Source of the DNA: the human T2T-CHM13v2.0 reference genome, Homo sapiens
NCBI RefSeq assembly: GCF_009914755.1
Contig: NC_060928.1
Reading direction: 5' to 3' (one strand)
Length of the DNA stretch: 64,000 nt
In this document: in pieces, positions 13,823 to 18,530 of the stretch
Layout: every line of letters starts with the position of its first letter
Numbering within the stretch: the stretch's first letter is position 1
Made by a program: the position numbers and the translations under genes
Notes under the pieces: generated by a model
The model's database searches: none
The model's input: only the letters and a program-made list of their open reading frames with translations
What the model was told of the DNA's origin: nothing

Positions 13823-15964
13823 AGCCTACTCCTGGCCATGGGCCTCTGCCCCTATCTTCTGCCTTCTGTTCTGTCCCAAGAAAAGCCTGACACTCTAAAG
13901 AGGTCGCCGATTTTGATCACAAGTTTGAAAGACTCATAAGGCATCTAACATTTTAAGCTGTACAAACAAAATTAAAACTAAACACTTCGGAAAACAAAAA
14001 GCACACAAGAAATTTGGCTTTTTGCATCTGCACTGCCCATGCATTTGCTCCAGCCAGGGCAGTGCCAGGCAGCCTTCTGCAGGGAGCCACCAAGTGCCCA
14101 CCCCCGGGCAGGTCCACCTGGCTGCCCCTGTTGCGTAGTTCTGGGAGGCTGGCCTTGCAGCCACCTGAGAGGCCTCTGCTCGGAAAGCAGGAGGCACCTG
14201 ACAATGCCACGCTGATTGGATGTGAGCAGACAGAAGGAAGTATCTTAAAAGTCACACTGCTCTGCCAGCGATCACATTTTTGCTTAGGTTGATGACTGCT
14301 GGGCTGGTTGTCCTGGGGCAGGAAAGGACTGGGCTGTAAATGGACAGTGGGACCAGTCAGGTCATGCCCTCTGTCTGGCTGGACCCCCTTTCTCACTCCA
14401 CCATTCAGGGAGGCCTATTATGAGCCACTATCTGAAGAAGCCTGTGGATGAAAACCTAGTAAATTGGCTGTGATTCTTTGTCCTCCAGCAGCATCCACAT
14501 AGCAAGGAGAGGACACTGGCCCATGGCATCTTTGACCAGATCCCCAAGCTTCGCAGTAACTGAGCAGGCATCAGCAGGGGAAGGTTTGCCAGCTCTGGAG
14601 ATCAGCCCCCTGAATGGTGACAGGTTTCACTTCCCATCATGGAAATGGGGCTGGAGCCTCCTGCCTCTTGTGGCCTCTGCAGTAGCAGGGAAGCCCAGCC
14701 AGAAGCCAGCAGGGATGGGGGCCTTGGTCACCAGGGGTATAGGGAGCTCCAGCTTTGGGCAACTAGGAGCTGAGGAGAGGCCTCACTCCAGAGCCTGCAC
14801 CTGAAAACTATGCTCCATCCTTAAATTTGGCTACTTTTTCACAGCTATAAGTAGACTTCCATACACAATACAGATATTACACGTGGTTTCTGTAGCTTCT
14901 CTCTCCTAACTGCTCTGTGCTGGCACTCACCCCGCAGAGCACTGGCTGCCTCCCCAGTCCCACGGCAGGAGGTACTCATCTTTCCCACCAGGCTGTGGCT
15001 CTGCTCCCAGCTGCTCAGGGTCAGCAGCTACCAGCCTGATGCCACAATTCCAGCATGTGGGAGTCCGATCACCTTTTCCCAAGACTTGGAGCCGGACTGG
15101 CTCCCAGCCAGCCCAGCAGACAGATGGAAACACACTCCACGAGCATATGGAACTCATTTCATATCATGTGTGAAAACACACACACACATAGCCTCATCAT
15201 TTAAAAGTATGACCTTCACATCAATTAAGGCGATTACGGGGTATATTTGAAATGAAATGCTATCATACTCAAAATTACCAGATTAATGAAATAATCAACA
15301 GGAAAATTATCTATGCCAGAAAAACTATGACTGATTTTCCGAAATAGGATTAAATTGTTCATATGTATTAATCAAAAATAAGATCTGCTTTGCAGTCGAA
15401 ACCACACAACCAGTTTCCAAAAAAAAAAAAAGAAAAGAAAAAAGAAATGTATGGGATGTGGCATCAGGGTCTCTACACACACAGAAAGTTAGCTTTAGAA
15501 AGAGGCTGGATTCAGTCAACTAGCTAGCAGAATACAACTGTTCAAACTCAACATTTGTCCGACCAAATGAAACCATTTCCCCCCACACTGACTTGTGCGT
15601 AGACATCCTCTAATTCCAATTTGATGAATATTCTCCAATAACATAGCAATTAATTTAATAAAGGAACTCACCAATTTTAAATTGCAATAAATTTACCAAA
15701 CATTTTCACTATTTATGGAGAGCTTTACAGTAAGAAAGTATCAACAAAAGCAGGCACATCCGTGTACAAAGTGTTGCTGTTGGGTGTTCTCACTTCTTCT
15801 TTCTGAATTACCAGCTGCTCTGCGTCTCTGTCTGCTCTTCCTCCGTGGGAAGTCGCCGTCCTGGGGCGCTCGCTCTGTCCCCCTCGCCTCGGACCACCAG
15901 GCAGAGCAGCCCCAGGGTTTGGACTTGCCAAGAAAAGTGCAGTCGGGCTAGCCAAGCCCAAACA

Positions 15965-15970
15965 TTTATT
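15965..15970 (-). terminator. Candidate proximal polyadenylation signal (AATAAA) of TMEM271
   Basis: tttatt on the + strand ~280 nt past the stop codon. A variant ATTAAA lies at 15654-15659 in an AT-rich 3'UTR-like region. Confidence 0.4.
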
Positions 15971-16249
15971 GTAAACTTGAAAATGGAATCCAGATATGAA
16001 CGACACAAATAAGAAGAGAAACCTCCCAGATACAGAAATGGTCACATCAGGGGCCCCCTCCTGTGGTCACGGAGCCCGCAGAGGGGGCCAGGCCGGAGGC
16101 TGCAAAGCCACGTGGAAGAGGCGGCGCCCCTGAGGCCTGGCCCTGGACCCCGCCCCGCTGCCCGTCCTCCCTTGCCGCGGGGGTCCTGAGCGGGGCGGGG
16201 TGGGTGGAACGCAAGCGCGGTCCGCGGGATGGGGGTCCGGCCCGCGGGA

Positions 16250-17407
16250 TCAGCAGGCCCGATGGGTCTCCCAGGGCCGCGGCGTCTCGCAGGGCGGCCG
16301 GCAGCAGTAGGGGTAGGAGGCGTTGAGGTCGGGGTCCGAGGGCGCGTACCCCGGCAGCTCCACCGACGGGTGCCCCCCGCAGCGCACCTCCGCGCCCGCC
16401 TCGTCCAGCGCGTGGAGGACGCCTACGTTGATGTAGGAGACCGCGTGGTGCGCCGCGAAGCCCGCGCAGTCCCCGGGGGCGGCCAGGTCCGACTCCTCCG
16501 GGGACAGGATGGAGGCCTCGCTCGGCCGCTGCTGCAGCCGCCGCCCCCGCCGGCCCCGCCGGCCCCGGCGCGCCCGAGAGGCGGGCGGCTGCGCGCGGAG
16601 CCCGGAGCCGCCGCGGGGCCGCGCCAGGGCCCGGCCTCCCCTCCGCCTGCCGCGCCGACCGCGCCGGGCCTGCGACGACTTGTAGTTCTTGACGAGCAGG
16701 AGGCTGAGCAGGCCCAGCAGGCACTCAAGCGAGTTGAAGACGGTGGAGAGCACCAGGCCGCGCTGGTAGTCCTTCAGCTGGCGGCACTTGGCGGACGTGG
16801 CGCTGTCCAGGGTGCTGCGAGCGCGCGGGGCGCCGGGGGCCGAGCCCGGCGCCGAGCCGGGGGCCGAGCCCGGGGCCGAGCCGGGGGTTGAGCCCGGGGC
16901 CGAGCCGGGGCTCGAACCTGGCGCCCGCGGGGGCAGGCAGTAGTGCGAGTACTTGCGCTCCACCAGGGACACGGTGTCGCCGTCGATCACGGCGCCCGCG
17001 AATGCGCTGAGGACCCCGAGCATGAAGACCAGGACGCCGAGCAGAAGCAGGTTCTGGCTGCTCACCGGCCCCGGGGCCCCGGCCGCGGCCCCCGACTCGC
17101 CCGGCGTGGCCTCGGGAGCGCCTGCCGGCGCCGCGGGGACCCCCAAACCCGGGCCCGGTTCCGACCCCGCGAGGGGCGCGTCCCGGGGTCCGCAGCAGAG
17201 CAGGGCGGCGCCGAGCAGTGAGAGGCCGGCGGCCAGCAGCAGCCCGGAGTAGAAGGCGCCGGCGGCGGCCCCCAGGCGGAACGGCTCCCCGCGCAGCTCC
17301 GAGCCCAACGAGAAGCACTTGAGGCCGACGGCGGCGGCGCTGAGCGCGCAGGCGAGCAGGAGGCAGGAGGAGAGCGCGGCGCAGGCCCCGCGGACGCTCC
17401 ACTTCAT
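16250..17407 (-). CDS. TMEM271: Transmembrane protein 271, single coding exon, 385 aa, four hydrophobic segments
   Basis: ATG at 17407-17405 (context GGAGG-ATG-A) and TGA at 16252-16250, giving 1158 nt. MKWSVRGACAALSSCLLLACALS...PWETHRAC recognised as TMEM271. Confidence 0.93.
   Translation of the reverse strand: MKWSVRGACAALSSCLLLACALSAAAVGLKCFSLGSELRGEPFRLGAAAGAFYSGLLLAAGLSLLGAALLCCGPRDAPLAGSEPGPGLGVPAAPAGAPEATPGESGAAAGAPGPVSSQNLLLLGVLVFMLGVLSAFAGAVIDGDTVSLVERKYSHYCLPPRAPGSSPGSAPGSTPGSAPGSAPGSAPGSAPGAPRARSTLDSATSAKCRQLKDYQRGLVLSTVFNSLECLLGLLSLLLVKNYKSSQARRGRRGRRRGGRALARPRGGSGLRAQPPASRARRGRRGRRGRRLQQRPSEASILSPEESDLAAPGDCAGFAAHHAVSYINVGVLHALDEAGAEVRCGGHPSVELPGYAPSDPDLNASYPYCCRPPCETPRPWETHRAC
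16799..16819 (-). promoter_or_regulatory. Candidate REST/NRSF RE1 element inside the CDS
   Basis: The minus strand reads CGCAGCACCCTGGACAGCGCC versus consensus TTCAGCACCnnGGACAGCGCC. Confidence 0.6.
16829..16924 (-). repeat. Coding 12-bp tandem repeat, (A/S/T)PGS x ~8
   Basis: The protein reads APGSSPGSAPGSTPGSAPGSAPGSAPGSAPGA. Confidence 0.9.
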
Positions 17408-17520
17408 CCTCCGCGCCCGAGCCGGCCCGCACCCCGCGCGCCCGCCGCCGCCCGCCGCCGCCCCCGCCGCCTGCGCCTCCTCCCGGCGCCGCGCGGCCGG
17501 ACCGCCGGCCTCCTCCTCAT
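17404..17520 (-). other. uORF2, 38 aa, Arg-rich (MRRRPAVRPRGAGRRRRRRGRRRAAAGARGAGRLGRGG); its stop overlaps the main ATG
   Basis: ATG 17520-17518, no internal stop, TGA 17406-17404 within ATGA. Confidence 0.7.
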
Positions 17521-17567
17521 CCTCCCGCGTCCTCCCGGGCCCGCGCCGCCGCCGCCGGAGCCCGCAT
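17517..17567 (-). other. uORF1, 16 aa (MRAPAAAARAREDAGG); its stop overlaps the uORF2 ATG
   Basis: ATG 17567-17565, TGA 17519-17517 within ATGA. Confidence 0.65.
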
Positions 17568-17577
17568 CCTCCGCCTC

Positions 17578-17607
<30 letters not shown>
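17578..17607 (-). repeat. (CGG)10 trinucleotide repeat upstream of the TMEM271 ATG
   Basis: Ten uninterrupted CCG units on the + strand. Confidence 0.95.
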
Positions 17608-17608
<1 letters not shown>

Positions 17609-18211
17609 GACCCCGCGCCGGGAACCGATGCGGCGCAGAGACCGCAGGGCGCGCGCCCCCTCCCCAGCCCGCGGGGCCCCTCCCAGGAGGCTCGTTCCCC
17701 CCCAACCCCCCACCCCGCCCGCGGCCCCGCGCGCCTCGCCCTGGCGCCGCCCTTCCCCGCCCCCGGCAGCCCCCGCCACCCCCGGGACGCCCCTCCGCTT
17801 CCTCCTCCCGGAGCGGGGGCCCCTGGCCGCGTCTCTCCGCCTTCCCTCCCTATCCGCGCCCCTATCCGGCGCGGGCCGCTGCGGAAACGCAGCTCTCCAC
17901 CCCCAGCTGGCTCTCCCGGACCCCCTGGGCCCCACCCTCAGCGCTCCCCACCGCTCGGCGCCCCTGCGTCTGCGCTCCCCTCTCTCCCCTCTCTATCCAC
18001 TGGGTCTGGGCCGCACTTCCCGCCCACCCGCCTGCCAGCGGCCGGGAAGCCTGTGGAAGTTATGGGGATGCAGGGAGAGGGGGAGAGGGGAGCTTGTGTG
18101 CTAGGGGTGAGTGGGTATGGGGGAGAGCCTGGGTAAGGAGAAGGGGAAAGGGGGAGCCTGGGAAAGGAGGGAGGAAAGGAGGAGAGCCCGGGTGCTGGGG
18201 TGGGGGGGAAA

Positions 18212-18350
18212 GGAGCCCGGGGAGGGAGGGGGAGGGGCCGGGAGCTGGGGGGGGTGGGAAGGAGCCCGGGGAGGGAGGGGGAGGGGCCGGGAGCTGGGGG
18301 GGGTGGGAAGGAGCCCGGGGAGGGAGGGGGAGGGGCCGGGAGCTGGGGGT
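18212..18350 (+). repeat. 49-bp G-rich tandem repeat x ~3 in the promoter region
   Basis: Units start at 18212, 18261 and 18310 (ggagcccggggagggagggggaggggccgggagctggggg...). Confidence 0.9.
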
Positions 18351-18431
18351 AAGGGAGGAGTGAGCCTGGGTGCTGTGGGGGGAGGGGGTTGTTCAAGGGA
18401 TGGGGACGATCAGGGTCTCTGGGAAGTGCTG

Positions 18432-18530
18432 ACGTGTGCGCGTGTGCGGTGTGTTGCTTGTGGGTGCGTGTGTGGTGTGTGCATGTGTGTGCGCGCGCGT
18501 GTGTGCGGGGTGTGCCGTGAGCGTGTGCCC
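18432..18530. repeat. (GT/GC)n alternating tract
   Basis: gtgtgcgcgtgtgc...gtgtgtgcgcgcgcgtgtgtgc. Confidence 0.8.

What the first reader, a model, noticed from the sequence alone, without database searches (positions are those of the whole stretch)
17404..17567. Chained AUGA stop-start relay: uORF1 -> uORF2 -> TMEM271, all three starts in the same GGAGG-AUG context
Seen in the sequence (minus strand): uORF1 runs from ATG 17567 for 16 codons to TGA 17519-17517, which overlaps the uORF2 ATG (17520-17518) in an ATGA. uORF2 (38 aa, 17 Arg) ends at TGA 17406-17404, which overlaps the TMEM271 ATG (17407-17405) in a second ATGA. The three ORFs use the three different frames in turn, and each AUG is preceded by GGAGG (A at -3). 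These are the only ATGs in this leader stretch. Established: AUGA stop-start overlaps mediate termination-reinitiation/translational coupling in some RNA viruses and prokaryotic operons, and polybasic nascent peptides can slow ribosomes. Inference: this could be a cellular coupled-reinitiation or repression cassette controlling TMEM271 translation. I know of no description of it. It could also arise by chance from a thrice-repeated GGAGGATG motif in a GC-rich, stop-poor leader.
Basis: partly seen in the sequence, partly recalled or inferred. Interest (0 to 1): 0.8.

Follow-up and report, generated by a model that had tools for sequence, protein, structure and literature searches.

The report
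Two chained uORFs before TMEM271
The human TMEM271 mRNA leader really does carry two short upstream reading frames, each ending exactly on the next start codon, but this layout is mostly a by-product of a GC-rich triplet-repeat leader and most likely just dampens translation.

Summary
The anatomy is exact. On the minus strand, uORF1 (ATG 17567, 16 codons) stops at the TGA inside ATGA 17520-17517. uORF2 (ATG 17520, 38 codons, 17 Arg) stops at the TGA inside ATGA 17407-17404. All three ATGs follow GGAGG.

The layout is rare in dinucleotide shuffles (43 of 20,000) but not surprising for this sequence. The leader is a degenerate (GGC/GGA)n tract in which one G>T turns (GGA)3 into GGAGGATGA. Of 78 possible AGG>ATG pairs, 15 give the same relay. 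The last ATGA is forced by Met-Lys, which is kept from fish to human.

The leader is strikingly conserved. Six orthologous mammalian-type records translate it in the coding frame. All six keep the Cys codon that holds uATG1 and the Asp-Glu codons that hold uATG2/TGA, in register. One further record starts at uATG2 but fuses it in frame to the protein, so the relay is not universal.

I found no TURBS motif, no Rfam family and no structure beyond what composition predicts.

Best reading: ordinary repressive uORFs of the known SAPAP3 AUGA type, possibly with uORF1 carrying ribosomes past uAUG2. Transcription start, ribosome occupancy and the wobble bases in orthologues remain untested.

The parts
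17405..17640 (-). Annotated 5' leader of TMEM271 (236 nt including the main ATG). It is 88% G+C and a degenerate (GGC/GGA)n triplet tract.
   Evidence: The hub annotation gives the exon start at 17640. Composition is G137 C70 A16 T13. Tandem Repeats Finder reports period-3 and period-9 arrays over 17427-17608. MFE is -154.8 kcal/mol with z = +0.83 against shuffles.
17517..17567 (-). uORF1: ATG 17567, 16 codons (MRAPAAAARAREDAGG), stop TGA 17519-17517. Context is GGAGGATGC.
   Evidence: Its body varies in sequence and length among orthologue records (16, 18 or 21 codons if the ATG is present).
17517..17520 (-). First ATGA junction: the uORF1 stop overlaps the uORF2 start. It sits inside GGA GGA TGA GGA GGA GG, which is (GGA)6 with one G>T.
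   Evidence: In the coding frame it reads Asp-Glu (GAT GAG), kept in 6 of 6 extended records. The ATG is seen directly in record P0021.
17404..17520 (-). uORF2: ATG 17520, 38 codons with 17 Arg, stop TGA 17406-17404. Context is GGAGGATGA.
   Evidence: The Arg codons are CGG, AGG and CGC, the arginine reading of the repeat. The stretch is identical in the coding frame between human, P0003 and P0006. It holds one G-quadruplex motif starting at 17465.
17404..17407 (-). Second ATGA junction: the uORF2 stop overlaps the TMEM271 start (ATG AAG = Met-Lys).
   Evidence: Met-Lys is kept in 36 of 37 fetched orthologue records, fish included.
16250..17407 (-). TMEM271 coding sequence (385 aa, one exon).
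   Evidence: Orthologues are found from fish to primates. There is no Pfam family and no paralogue in the same genome.
17021..17023 (-). The only other ATG in the whole coding sequence, in any frame. It is in frame (Met129) in a weak context (T at -3). It is the next start a ribosome meets after passing the main AUG.
17580..17606 (-). Pure (GGC)9 repeat just 5' of uATG1. It is in phase with uORF1 as Gly codons and reads as poly-Ala in the coding frame.
   Evidence: Its length differs among orthologue records.

Best explanation
The stretch is the strongly conserved, 88% G+C leader of TMEM271 carrying two real AUG uORFs.

Why the stop-start chaining arises. It is a by-product, not a purpose-built coupling device. 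The ATGA motifs come from single G>T changes in (GGA)n. The triplet periodicity of the repeat sets the frames. Met-Lys at the protein start supplies the last TGA.

How it likely works (inferred from the scanning model).
1. Most 43S complexes that get through the GC-rich leader start at uAUG1, which has A at -3.
2. They translate 16 codons and terminate on top of uAUG2.
3. A post-termination 40S has no ternary complex at that moment. It mostly cannot use uAUG2, which lies one base behind the stop. It resumes scanning and can reinitiate 112 nt downstream at the main AUG.
4. Ribosomes that leak past uAUG1 start at uAUG2, translate 38 codons and terminate on the main AUG. They miss it, as shown for the AUGA uORF of SAPAP3.

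The net effect is constitutive dampening of TMEM271 translation, with uORF1 partly shielding ribosomes from uORF2. Direct hand-over at either ATGA is at most a minor path.
For: - The anatomy is exact.
- Only four ATGs lie in the first ~1.4 kb of the mRNA. Every ribosome route is therefore fixed by these sites plus Met129.
- All three AUGs have A at -3.
- A composition-aware null makes the relay geometry likely: 15 of 78 pairs, 8 of 13 singles, and 7 of 14 AGG sites already in a GGAGG context.
- Met-Lys is kept in 36 of 37 fetched records.
- The leader is conserved in register in 6 of 6 extended orthologue records. This includes the Cys codon (TGY) of uATG1 and the Asp-Glu codons (GAY GAR) of uATG2/TGA.
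- uATG2 is seen directly as the start of P0021.
- No TGGGA motif, no Rfam match, and a fold no more stable than shuffles.
- Precedent read in passages: in SAPAP3 the uORF2 stop shares AUGA with the main start in a long GC-rich leader. There the uORF represses and the main AUG is reached by leaky scanning (PMC3387777).
- The review PMC10275272 (passages) states that viral AUGA/UAAUG reinitiation needs a structured upstream element.
Against: - No transcription-start, ribosome-footprint or reporter data could be seen. The only support for the uORFs being in the mRNA is the RefSeq exon start at 17640.
- TMEM271 does not occur in the supplements of the 7,264-sORF evolutionary study (0 of 5 files). 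It also does not occur in the mouse cortical nanoRibo-seq paper (0 of 1 file). This is weak negative evidence for translation.
- The two deciding wobble bases (GGA before TGC, and GAT versus GAC) cannot be read from protein records. Conservation of the AUGs themselves is therefore shown only for uATG2, in one non-human record.
- The very strong nucleotide-level conservation goes beyond what plain uORF presence needs. At most one change in 45 nt is inferred between human and P0016/P0021. Something else may be constrained.
- The proposed uORF1 bypass is inference only.
Confidence: 0.5

Rival explanations
1. True coupled termination-reinitiation relay. A ribosome that ends uORF1 restarts on the overlapping uAUG2, and one that ends uORF2 restarts on the overlapping main AUG. 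TMEM271 synthesis would then depend on both stop-start junctions.
For: - There are two exact ATGA overlaps.
- Both uORFs are short (16 and 38 codons).
- The register of all three sites is kept in 6 of 6 extended orthologue records despite several insertions and deletions.
- Limited backward movement of post-termination ribosomes is accepted for viral AUGA/UAAUG cases (PMC10275272, passages).
- Cellular termination-reinitiation has been reported (Gould 2014, PMC3923131, abstract only).
Against: - No TGGGA/TURBS-like motif, no Rfam family, and no excess structure.
- Insertions and deletions upstream of uATG1, where a relay imposes no constraint, are also multiples of three. This points to triplet slippage, not selection on the relay.
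- Record P0021 has lost the second junction by a frame change.
- The last TGA is explained by Met-Lys.
- In the SAPAP3 AUGA case, ribosomes translating the uORF were concluded to bypass the main AUG.
Confidence: 0.1
2. Incidental and little used. The uATGs are neutral products of G>T changes in a repeat. Most transcripts start downstream of them, or ribosomes rarely get through the leader. Regulation would then come from the GC-rich structure or from the DNA-level promoter, not from the uORFs.
For: - The composition-aware null is permissive.
- Having two uATGs is common in shuffles (4,720 of 20,000 have two or more).
- Conservation runs on upstream of the annotated start, into what should be promoter. 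Part of the constraint may therefore act on DNA.
- There is no catalogue entry in the two supplements I could search.
- P0021 tolerates fusion of uATG2 to the protein.
Against: - The codons holding both uATGs are kept in all 6 extended records.
- uATG2 is present in a record only 83% identical to human across the protein.
- AUGs with A at -3 in an mRNA are normally recognised (established scanning model).
- RefSeq places both uATGs inside the exon.
Confidence: 0.25
3. The conservation reflects coding. Either the Arg-rich uORF2 product is a functional micropeptide, or TMEM271 has a non-AUG N-terminal extension in the coding frame. The in-frame ACG at 17530-17528 is one possible start, giving TREDEEEAGG...
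For: - The coding frame is open for 195 codons upstream.
- The 47 codons before Met are identical in human, P0003 and P0006.
- At least 7 insertions or deletions are multiples of three, against one that is not.
- The one human-versus-P0021 difference in uORF2 (AGG>AAG) is synonymous in the coding frame.
- In the P0021 lineage an extension from uATG2 exists in frame.
Against: - The few substitutions show no frame preference. One is silent in the coding frame only, one is silent in the uORF2 frame only, and two are non-silent in both (my codon reading).
- Both sets of would-be silent positions are almost unchanged, which is not the signature of single-frame coding.
- Triplet slippage alone gives indels that are multiples of three.
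- Both peptides are low-complexity readings of a repeat.
- The protein begins with a signal-peptide-like or transmembrane-like segment right after Met-Lys, and that start is kept to fish.
Confidence: 0.1

Closest known systems
SAPAP3 (DLGAP3) uORF2, whose stop shares AUGA with the main start (PMC3387777; passages read)
   Same: A cellular brain mRNA with a long GC-rich leader and several uORFs. The stop of one uORF overlaps the main AUG as AUGA. An in-frame downstream AUG is available for a shortened isoform; here that is Met129.
   Different: SAPAP3 has one AUGA junction and experimental proof of repression and leaky scanning. TMEM271 has two junctions in series and no experimental data. The other SAPAP3 uORFs are in poor context, whereas both TMEM271 uAUGs have A at -3.
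Viral termination-reinitiation at AUGA/UAAUG with a TURBS element (caliciviruses, influenza B; review PMC10275272, passages)
   Same: The stop and start codons share nucleotides and are out of frame with each other.
   Different: The viral cases follow long ORFs and need a structured upstream element that pairs with 18S rRNA. Here the ORFs are 16 and 38 codons. The motif I recalled (TGGGA) is absent. The fold is not more stable than shuffles.
Delayed-reinitiation leaders of the GCN4/ATF4 type (named from established knowledge; mentioned in the passages)
   Same: A short 5'-proximal uORF is followed by a second uORF that overlaps the main start. That gives a route in which ribosomes finishing uORF1 skip uAUG2.
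   Different: In ATF4 the spacer between uORF1 and uAUG2 is tuned so that eIF2 availability decides the choice. Here the spacer is negative (an overlap), so skipping uAUG2 would be the default and stress would more likely lower main-ORF use. No stress dependence was tested.
Cellular overlapping-ORF termination-reinitiation (Gould et al. 2014, PMC3923131; abstract only)
   Same: Human mRNAs with two overlapping ORFs where coupling was considered. Thousands of such transcripts were found by algorithm.
   Different: Those are second ORFs after the main ORF, not uORFs. In one case coupling depended on an Asp-rich peptide at the ORF-1 C-terminus. Nothing comparable was tested here.

Membership tests
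AUG-initiated upstream ORF (uORF) of a eukaryotic mRNA | An AUG upstream of the main start, inside the transcribed leader, with an in-frame stop | tested here: met
   ATG 17567 to TGA 17519, and ATG 17520 to TGA 17406. Both lie inside the RefSeq exon 15225-17640 per the hub annotation. The transcription start itself could not be checked.
AUG-initiated upstream ORF (uORF) of a eukaryotic mRNA | Ribosome occupancy or initiation at the uAUG | tested here: inconclusive
   TMEM271 is absent from 5 supplement files of PMC10032668 and 1 file of PMC10591829. The brain Ribo-seq paper was not held by DOI, bioRxiv supplements are closed, and paper reading closed.
AUG-initiated upstream ORF (uORF) of a eukaryotic mRNA | Conservation of the uAUG in orthologues | tested here: inconclusive
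   The codons holding both uATGs (Cys; Asp-Glu) are kept in register in 6 of 6 extended records. uATG2 is seen directly in P0021. The wobble bases that decide ATG versus non-ATG are unreadable in the other records.
TURBS-dependent viral-type termination-reinitiation | Stop and start codons share nucleotides (AUGA or UAAUG) | tested here: met
   ATGA at 17520-17517 and at 17407-17404.
TURBS-dependent viral-type termination-reinitiation | An upstream structured element with an 18S-complementary motif (UGGGA; the motif is recalled, not taken from a call) | tested here: not met
   No TGGGA in 17640-17380. Fold z = +0.83. No Rfam match at E <= 1 over 16900-18300.
TURBS-dependent viral-type termination-reinitiation | Restart follows a long upstream ORF | tested here: not met
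   The upstream ORFs are 16 and 38 codons.
SAPAP3-type AUGA overlap of uORF stop and main start | The uORF stop shares UGA with the main AUGA, in a GC-rich leader | tested here: met
   TGA 17406-17404 lies inside ATGA. The leader is 88% G+C.
SAPAP3-type AUGA overlap of uORF stop and main start | Repression is relieved by mutating the uAUG, and the main AUG is reached by leaky scanning | not testable with these tools
   Needs reporter assays.
GCN4/ATF4-type delayed reinitiation | A short permissive first uORF followed by an inhibitory uORF overlapping the main start | tested here: met
   uORF1 has 16 codons. uORF2 overlaps the main ATG by its stop. This is met at the level of architecture only.
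GCN4/ATF4-type delayed reinitiation | The choice between uAUG2 and the main AUG depends on eIF2 ternary-complex level | not testable with these tools
   Needs stress or ISRIB reporter experiments.

The most novel reading that the evidence does not exclude
A conserved zero-spacer, two-uORF switch. Termination of uORF1 on top of uAUG2 is selected because it hides the inhibitory, Arg-rich uORF2 from reinitiating ribosomes and delivers them to the main AUG 112 nt on. Leaky scanners are trapped by uORF2 and sent to Met129. The ratio of full-length to N-terminally truncated TMEM271 would then be set by uAUG1 recognition and by eIF2 availability. The near-invariant 140 nt before the start would be kept for this purpose, perhaps with a functional uORF2 peptide or a non-AUG extension as a second layer.
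Probability: 0.12. Interest if true: 0.6.

Novelty: new member of a known kind. Interest (0 to 1): 0.3.

Why it matters
TMEM271 is a vertebrate-wide membrane protein that is almost unstudied. The gene name occurs in the main text of only one paper in the library, and that paper is unrelated.

If the two uORFs are used, they would be its main known point of control. The leader would also be a compact natural test bed with only four AUGs in 1.4 kb. It could show what a mammalian ribosome does when it terminates exactly on the next start codon.

Beyond that, this is one more uORF-bearing GC-rich leader. The lesson for the scan is that in triplet-repeat leaders, chained ATGA overlaps arise easily and should not be read as evidence of coupling.

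Tried and rejected
**Nucleotide sequence of orthologous leaders.** None could be obtained.
- The search for related loci in genome contigs found no relative among 252 pattern matches.
- The search for related loci in viral contigs found none among 4 matches.
- The held genome has no relatives.

**Antisense-frame protein searches**, meant to recover the wobble bases.
- Frame 17344-18360(+) gave no hit.
- Frame 17222-18133(+) gave 6 representatives.
- One of the six is 100% identical to the query.
- Two cover only the region upstream of the leader.
- Three are distant or partial records. Two of these still show A at -3 of the main ATG but no GGAGG, and no alignable leader.

**Other sequence searches.**
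- A leader-region search for more extended orthologues returned only the six already known.
- Pfam found no family for the protein.
- There is no paralogue or second copy of the leader in the genome.
- Rfam found nothing.

**Literature.**
- Searches were false leads: 'AUGa' superscripts matched 'AUGA'.
- Searches for an earlier description found none of this leader or of a double AUGA uORF chain. The searches were TMEM271, AUGA+uORF+reinitiation (29 papers), stop-start/uORF/termination-reinitiation (85 papers, 20 listed) and ATGA+uORF+stop codon+overlapping (3 papers).
- Listings and abstracts only were seen for most of these papers.
- The catalogue supplements gave 0 occurrences of TMEM271.
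- The published brain Ribo-seq paper is not held.
- Paper reading closed, so the 2026 ncORF catalogue could not be checked.
- Earlier findings of the scan were not open.

**Idea rejected.** GGAGG as a Shine-Dalgarno-like signal is irrelevant for a human cytoplasmic mRNA.
Full report
**Observation.**
- uATG1 at 17567 opens a 16-codon frame (MRAPAAAARAREDAGG). It stops at TGA 17519-17517.
- That TGA lies inside ATGA 17520-17517, whose ATG opens uORF2. uORF2 has 38 codons, 17 of them Arg.
- uORF2 stops at TGA 17406-17404, inside ATGA 17407-17404, whose ATG is the annotated TMEM271 start.
- Each ATG follows GGAGG.
- On this strand there is no other ATG between 18484 and 17023. No stop triplet occurs in any frame between 17852 and 17404 other than the two ATGA-embedded TGAs.
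- The 1,158-nt coding sequence holds only one further ATG in any frame, the in-frame Met129 at 17023 in a weak context.

**Is it more than chance?** The answer depends on the null model.
- Against dinucleotide-preserving shuffles of the 233-nt leader, the double relay is rare: 43 of 20,000. Having two or more uATGs is common: 4,720 of 20,000.
- The leader is not a random GC-rich string. It is G137 C70 A16 T13. Tandem Repeats Finder reports period-3 and period-9 arrays over 17427-17608.
- Every A but one sits in a GGAGG or GGAGGA-type context.
- GGAGGATGA is (GGA)3 with a single G>T. That one change creates an ATG, the overlapping TGA and the GGAGG context together.
- The site at 17520 lies in GGA GGA TGA GGA GGA GG. 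The two ATGA sites are 88% identical over 16 nt.
- With the ATGs restored to AGG, 7 of 14 AGG sites already have GGAGG upstream.
- 15 of 78 pairs of AGG>ATG changes recreate the same relay. 8 of 13 single changes give a uORF ending exactly on the main ATGA. The AGG triplets are clustered in phase, and no other stops exist.

**The last junction is forced by the protein.** The protein begins Met-Lys (ATG AAR) in 36 of the 37 orthologue records I fetched, down to fish (MKLSG...). The exception is a truncated chimpanzee model. The TGA at the main start is therefore a coding by-product that any uORF in that frame will use.

**Comparative evidence.** TMEM271 has orthologues across vertebrates: 145 proteins at E <= 0.001, of which 120 were listed. 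It has no Pfam family and no paralogue in the same genome.
- Six records carry N-terminal extensions that are the coding-frame translation of the leader. They are P0003, P0006, P0007, the goat record P0008, P0016 and P0026. A search restricted to the leader part found only these six.
- Aligned with the human translation, they read ...GGGGCGL(R-rich)GPGRTREDEEEAGGPAARRREEAQAAGAAAGGGGRAGCGPARARRMKWSV.
- In this frame uATG1 is GGA TGC (Gly-Cys) and uATG2/TGA is GAT GAG (Asp-Glu).
- Cys and Asp-Glu are present and in register with Met in 6 of 6 records.
- If the ATGs are present, uORF1 would be 16 codons (human, P0003, P0016), 21 (P0006-8) or 18 (P0026). uORF2 would be 38, 39 (P0007, P0008) or 35 (P0026).
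- The uORF2 stretch is identical in this frame in human, P0003 and P0006. The uORF1 body is variable in sequence and length.
- The two bases that decide whether the ATGs exist are wobble positions in this frame: the A of GGA and the T of GAT. They cannot be read from the proteins.

**A lineage that breaks the relay.** Record P0021 (a cluster of 46 members) starts MKRRPAVRPRGAGRR. This is the uORF2 peptide (human MRRRPAVRPRGAGRR; BLAST 8 of 9 identities; full stretch by eye).
- It then continues QAAGAAAGGGGRAGCGPAPARRMKWSV, which is the coding frame.
- So uATG2, still followed by A, exists in that lineage.
- I infer from the human codons that a two-base loss after AGG AGG fuses it in frame to the protein. 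uORF2 thereby becomes a 37-residue N-terminal extension.
- Its close relative P0016 (93% identical over 378 residues) keeps the human-like register.
- The second junction is therefore dispensable in at least one lineage. An assembly error cannot be fully excluded.

**What the conservation pattern says.**
- I combined the two frames for the first 45 nt of uORF2 (P0016 in the coding frame, P0021 in the uORF2 frame). They allow at most one difference from human: AGG>AAG, silent in the coding frame.
- Elsewhere P0026 has one change silent only in the uORF2 frame (GCC>ACC read as AGG>AGA) and one change non-silent in both frames. P0016 and P0021 have one change non-silent in both (my codon reading).
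- There is no frame-specific signature. The constraint looks nucleotide-level.
- At least seven insertions or deletions are multiples of three. These include three upstream of uATG1, where a relay would impose no constraint. Only one, in P0021, is not a multiple of three. Triplet slippage explains this without selection on the relay.
- Conservation continues upstream of the annotated exon start at 17640, so part of it may be promoter.

**Tests for a coupling device.**
- There is no TGGGA in 17640-17380. This is the calicivirus-type TURBS motif, recalled from memory.
- There is no Rfam match at E <= 1 in 16900-18300.
- The 261-nt leader folds at -154.8 kcal/mol, but shuffles average -158.1 (z = +0.83). 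It is extremely stable by composition alone, with no evidence of a selected structure.
- One G-quadruplex motif starts at 17465.
- The leader is single-copy in the genome. The five other matches are 74-92% identical GC-rich partial hits.

**Mechanism (inferred).** The steps follow the scanning model.
1. uAUG1 (A at -3, C at +4) should capture most ribosomes.
2. After 16 codons they terminate with uAUG2 one base behind the stop.
3. A 40S subunit that stays on the mRNA lacks initiator tRNA at that moment. It will mostly move on, and the next AUG is the main one, 112 nt away.
4. Ribosomes that leak past uAUG1 start at uAUG2 (A at -3). They terminate on the main AUG and miss it. The next AUG is Met129.

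This is the logic shown experimentally for the AUGA uORF of SAPAP3. There the uORF represses, the main start is reached by leaky scanning, and a downstream in-frame AUG gives a shorter isoform (PMC3387777, passages). The review PMC10275272 (passages) states two things. Overlapping uORFs usually act through leaky scanning rather than reinitiation. AUGA/UAAUG reinitiation in viruses needs a structured upstream element.

The 17 Arg of uORF2 are CGG, AGG and CGC codons, which is the arginine reading of the repeat. They are not evidence for a selected polybasic peptide.

**What could not be done.**
- No transcription-start data or ribosome-profiling tracks were available.
- TMEM271 does not occur in the supplements of PMC10032668 (5 files) or PMC10591829 (1 file).
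- The published brain Ribo-seq paper is not held, and bioRxiv supplements are closed.
- Paper reading closed, so the 2026 ncORF catalogue was not checked. Those tables may bear directly on whether the uORFs are translated.
- Orthologous nucleotide sequence could not be fetched.

**Novelty and verdict.**
- My searches found no description of this leader or of two AUGA junctions in series in a cellular mRNA. Most of those papers were seen as listings only.
- Each element is of a known kind: AUG uORFs, and an AUGA overlap with the main start as in SAPAP3.
- The best reading is a conserved pair of ordinary repressive uORFs whose chaining is a compositional and coding by-product (confidence 0.5).
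- Interest is modest (0.3). The main open point is why the 140 nt before the start are nearly invariant.

Noticed in passing
window 17580-17606 (-): A pure (GGC)9 repeat lies in the 5' leader directly upstream of uATG1. It is in phase with uORF1 as Gly codons and reads as poly-Ala in the coding frame. Its length differs among orthologue records (5-10 Ala). GGC repeats in leaders of brain genes are the class that causes polyglycine diseases when expanded (recalled knowledge). Nothing here suggests expansion.
   Followed up: partly
window 16250-17407 (-): The 1,158-nt coding sequence holds only two ATG triplets in any frame, the start and Met129. Any ribosome that misses the start can only restart in frame, at a weak-context AUG 384 nt on. 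That would give a protein lacking the first hydrophobic segment.
   Followed up: partly
window 17405-17992 (-): The TMEM271 frame is open for 195 codons upstream of the ATG. All six frames are largely open across the leader, with antisense stop-to-stop ORFs of 283-339 aa. Public protein sets contain mechanical predictions from this. They include a 635-aa record 100% identical to an antisense frame (P0123) and a goat model starting about 124 codons upstream (P0008).
   Followed up: yes
window ~16740-16830 (-), TMEM271 residues ~165-195: There is a tandem PGSA-type repeat (SPGSAPGSTPGSAPGSAPGSAPGSAPG). Its copy number differs between this human assembly (385 aa) and the bonobo record (377 aa). 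It is replaced by Ala/Pro-rich variants in other mammals.
   Followed up: no
orthologue records P0061, P0066, P0067, P0088, P0116 and others: Non-placental orthologues end in a PPxY-like motif...PLPNEQPPAYE(D/E)IYP..., which is also present in monotremes. Placental records end instead in a Cys-rich ...YPYCCRPPCE..RPWE..RAC. This is a lineage-specific change in the cytoplasmic tail of an uncharacterised protein.
   Followed up: no
records P0034, P0036, P0009, P0033: Several named mammalian models (pangolin, donkey, sheep, colugo) run into frameshifted or read-through tails. These are probably assembly or annotation errors in this GC-rich single-exon gene.
   Followed up: no
window 17640-18512: The conserved CpG-rich block continues upstream of the annotated TMEM271 exon start, towards the divergent lncRNA LOC105374338 (start 18512, + strand). 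This is consistent with a shared bidirectional CpG-island promoter, so a broad spread of start sites is to be expected.
   Followed up: no
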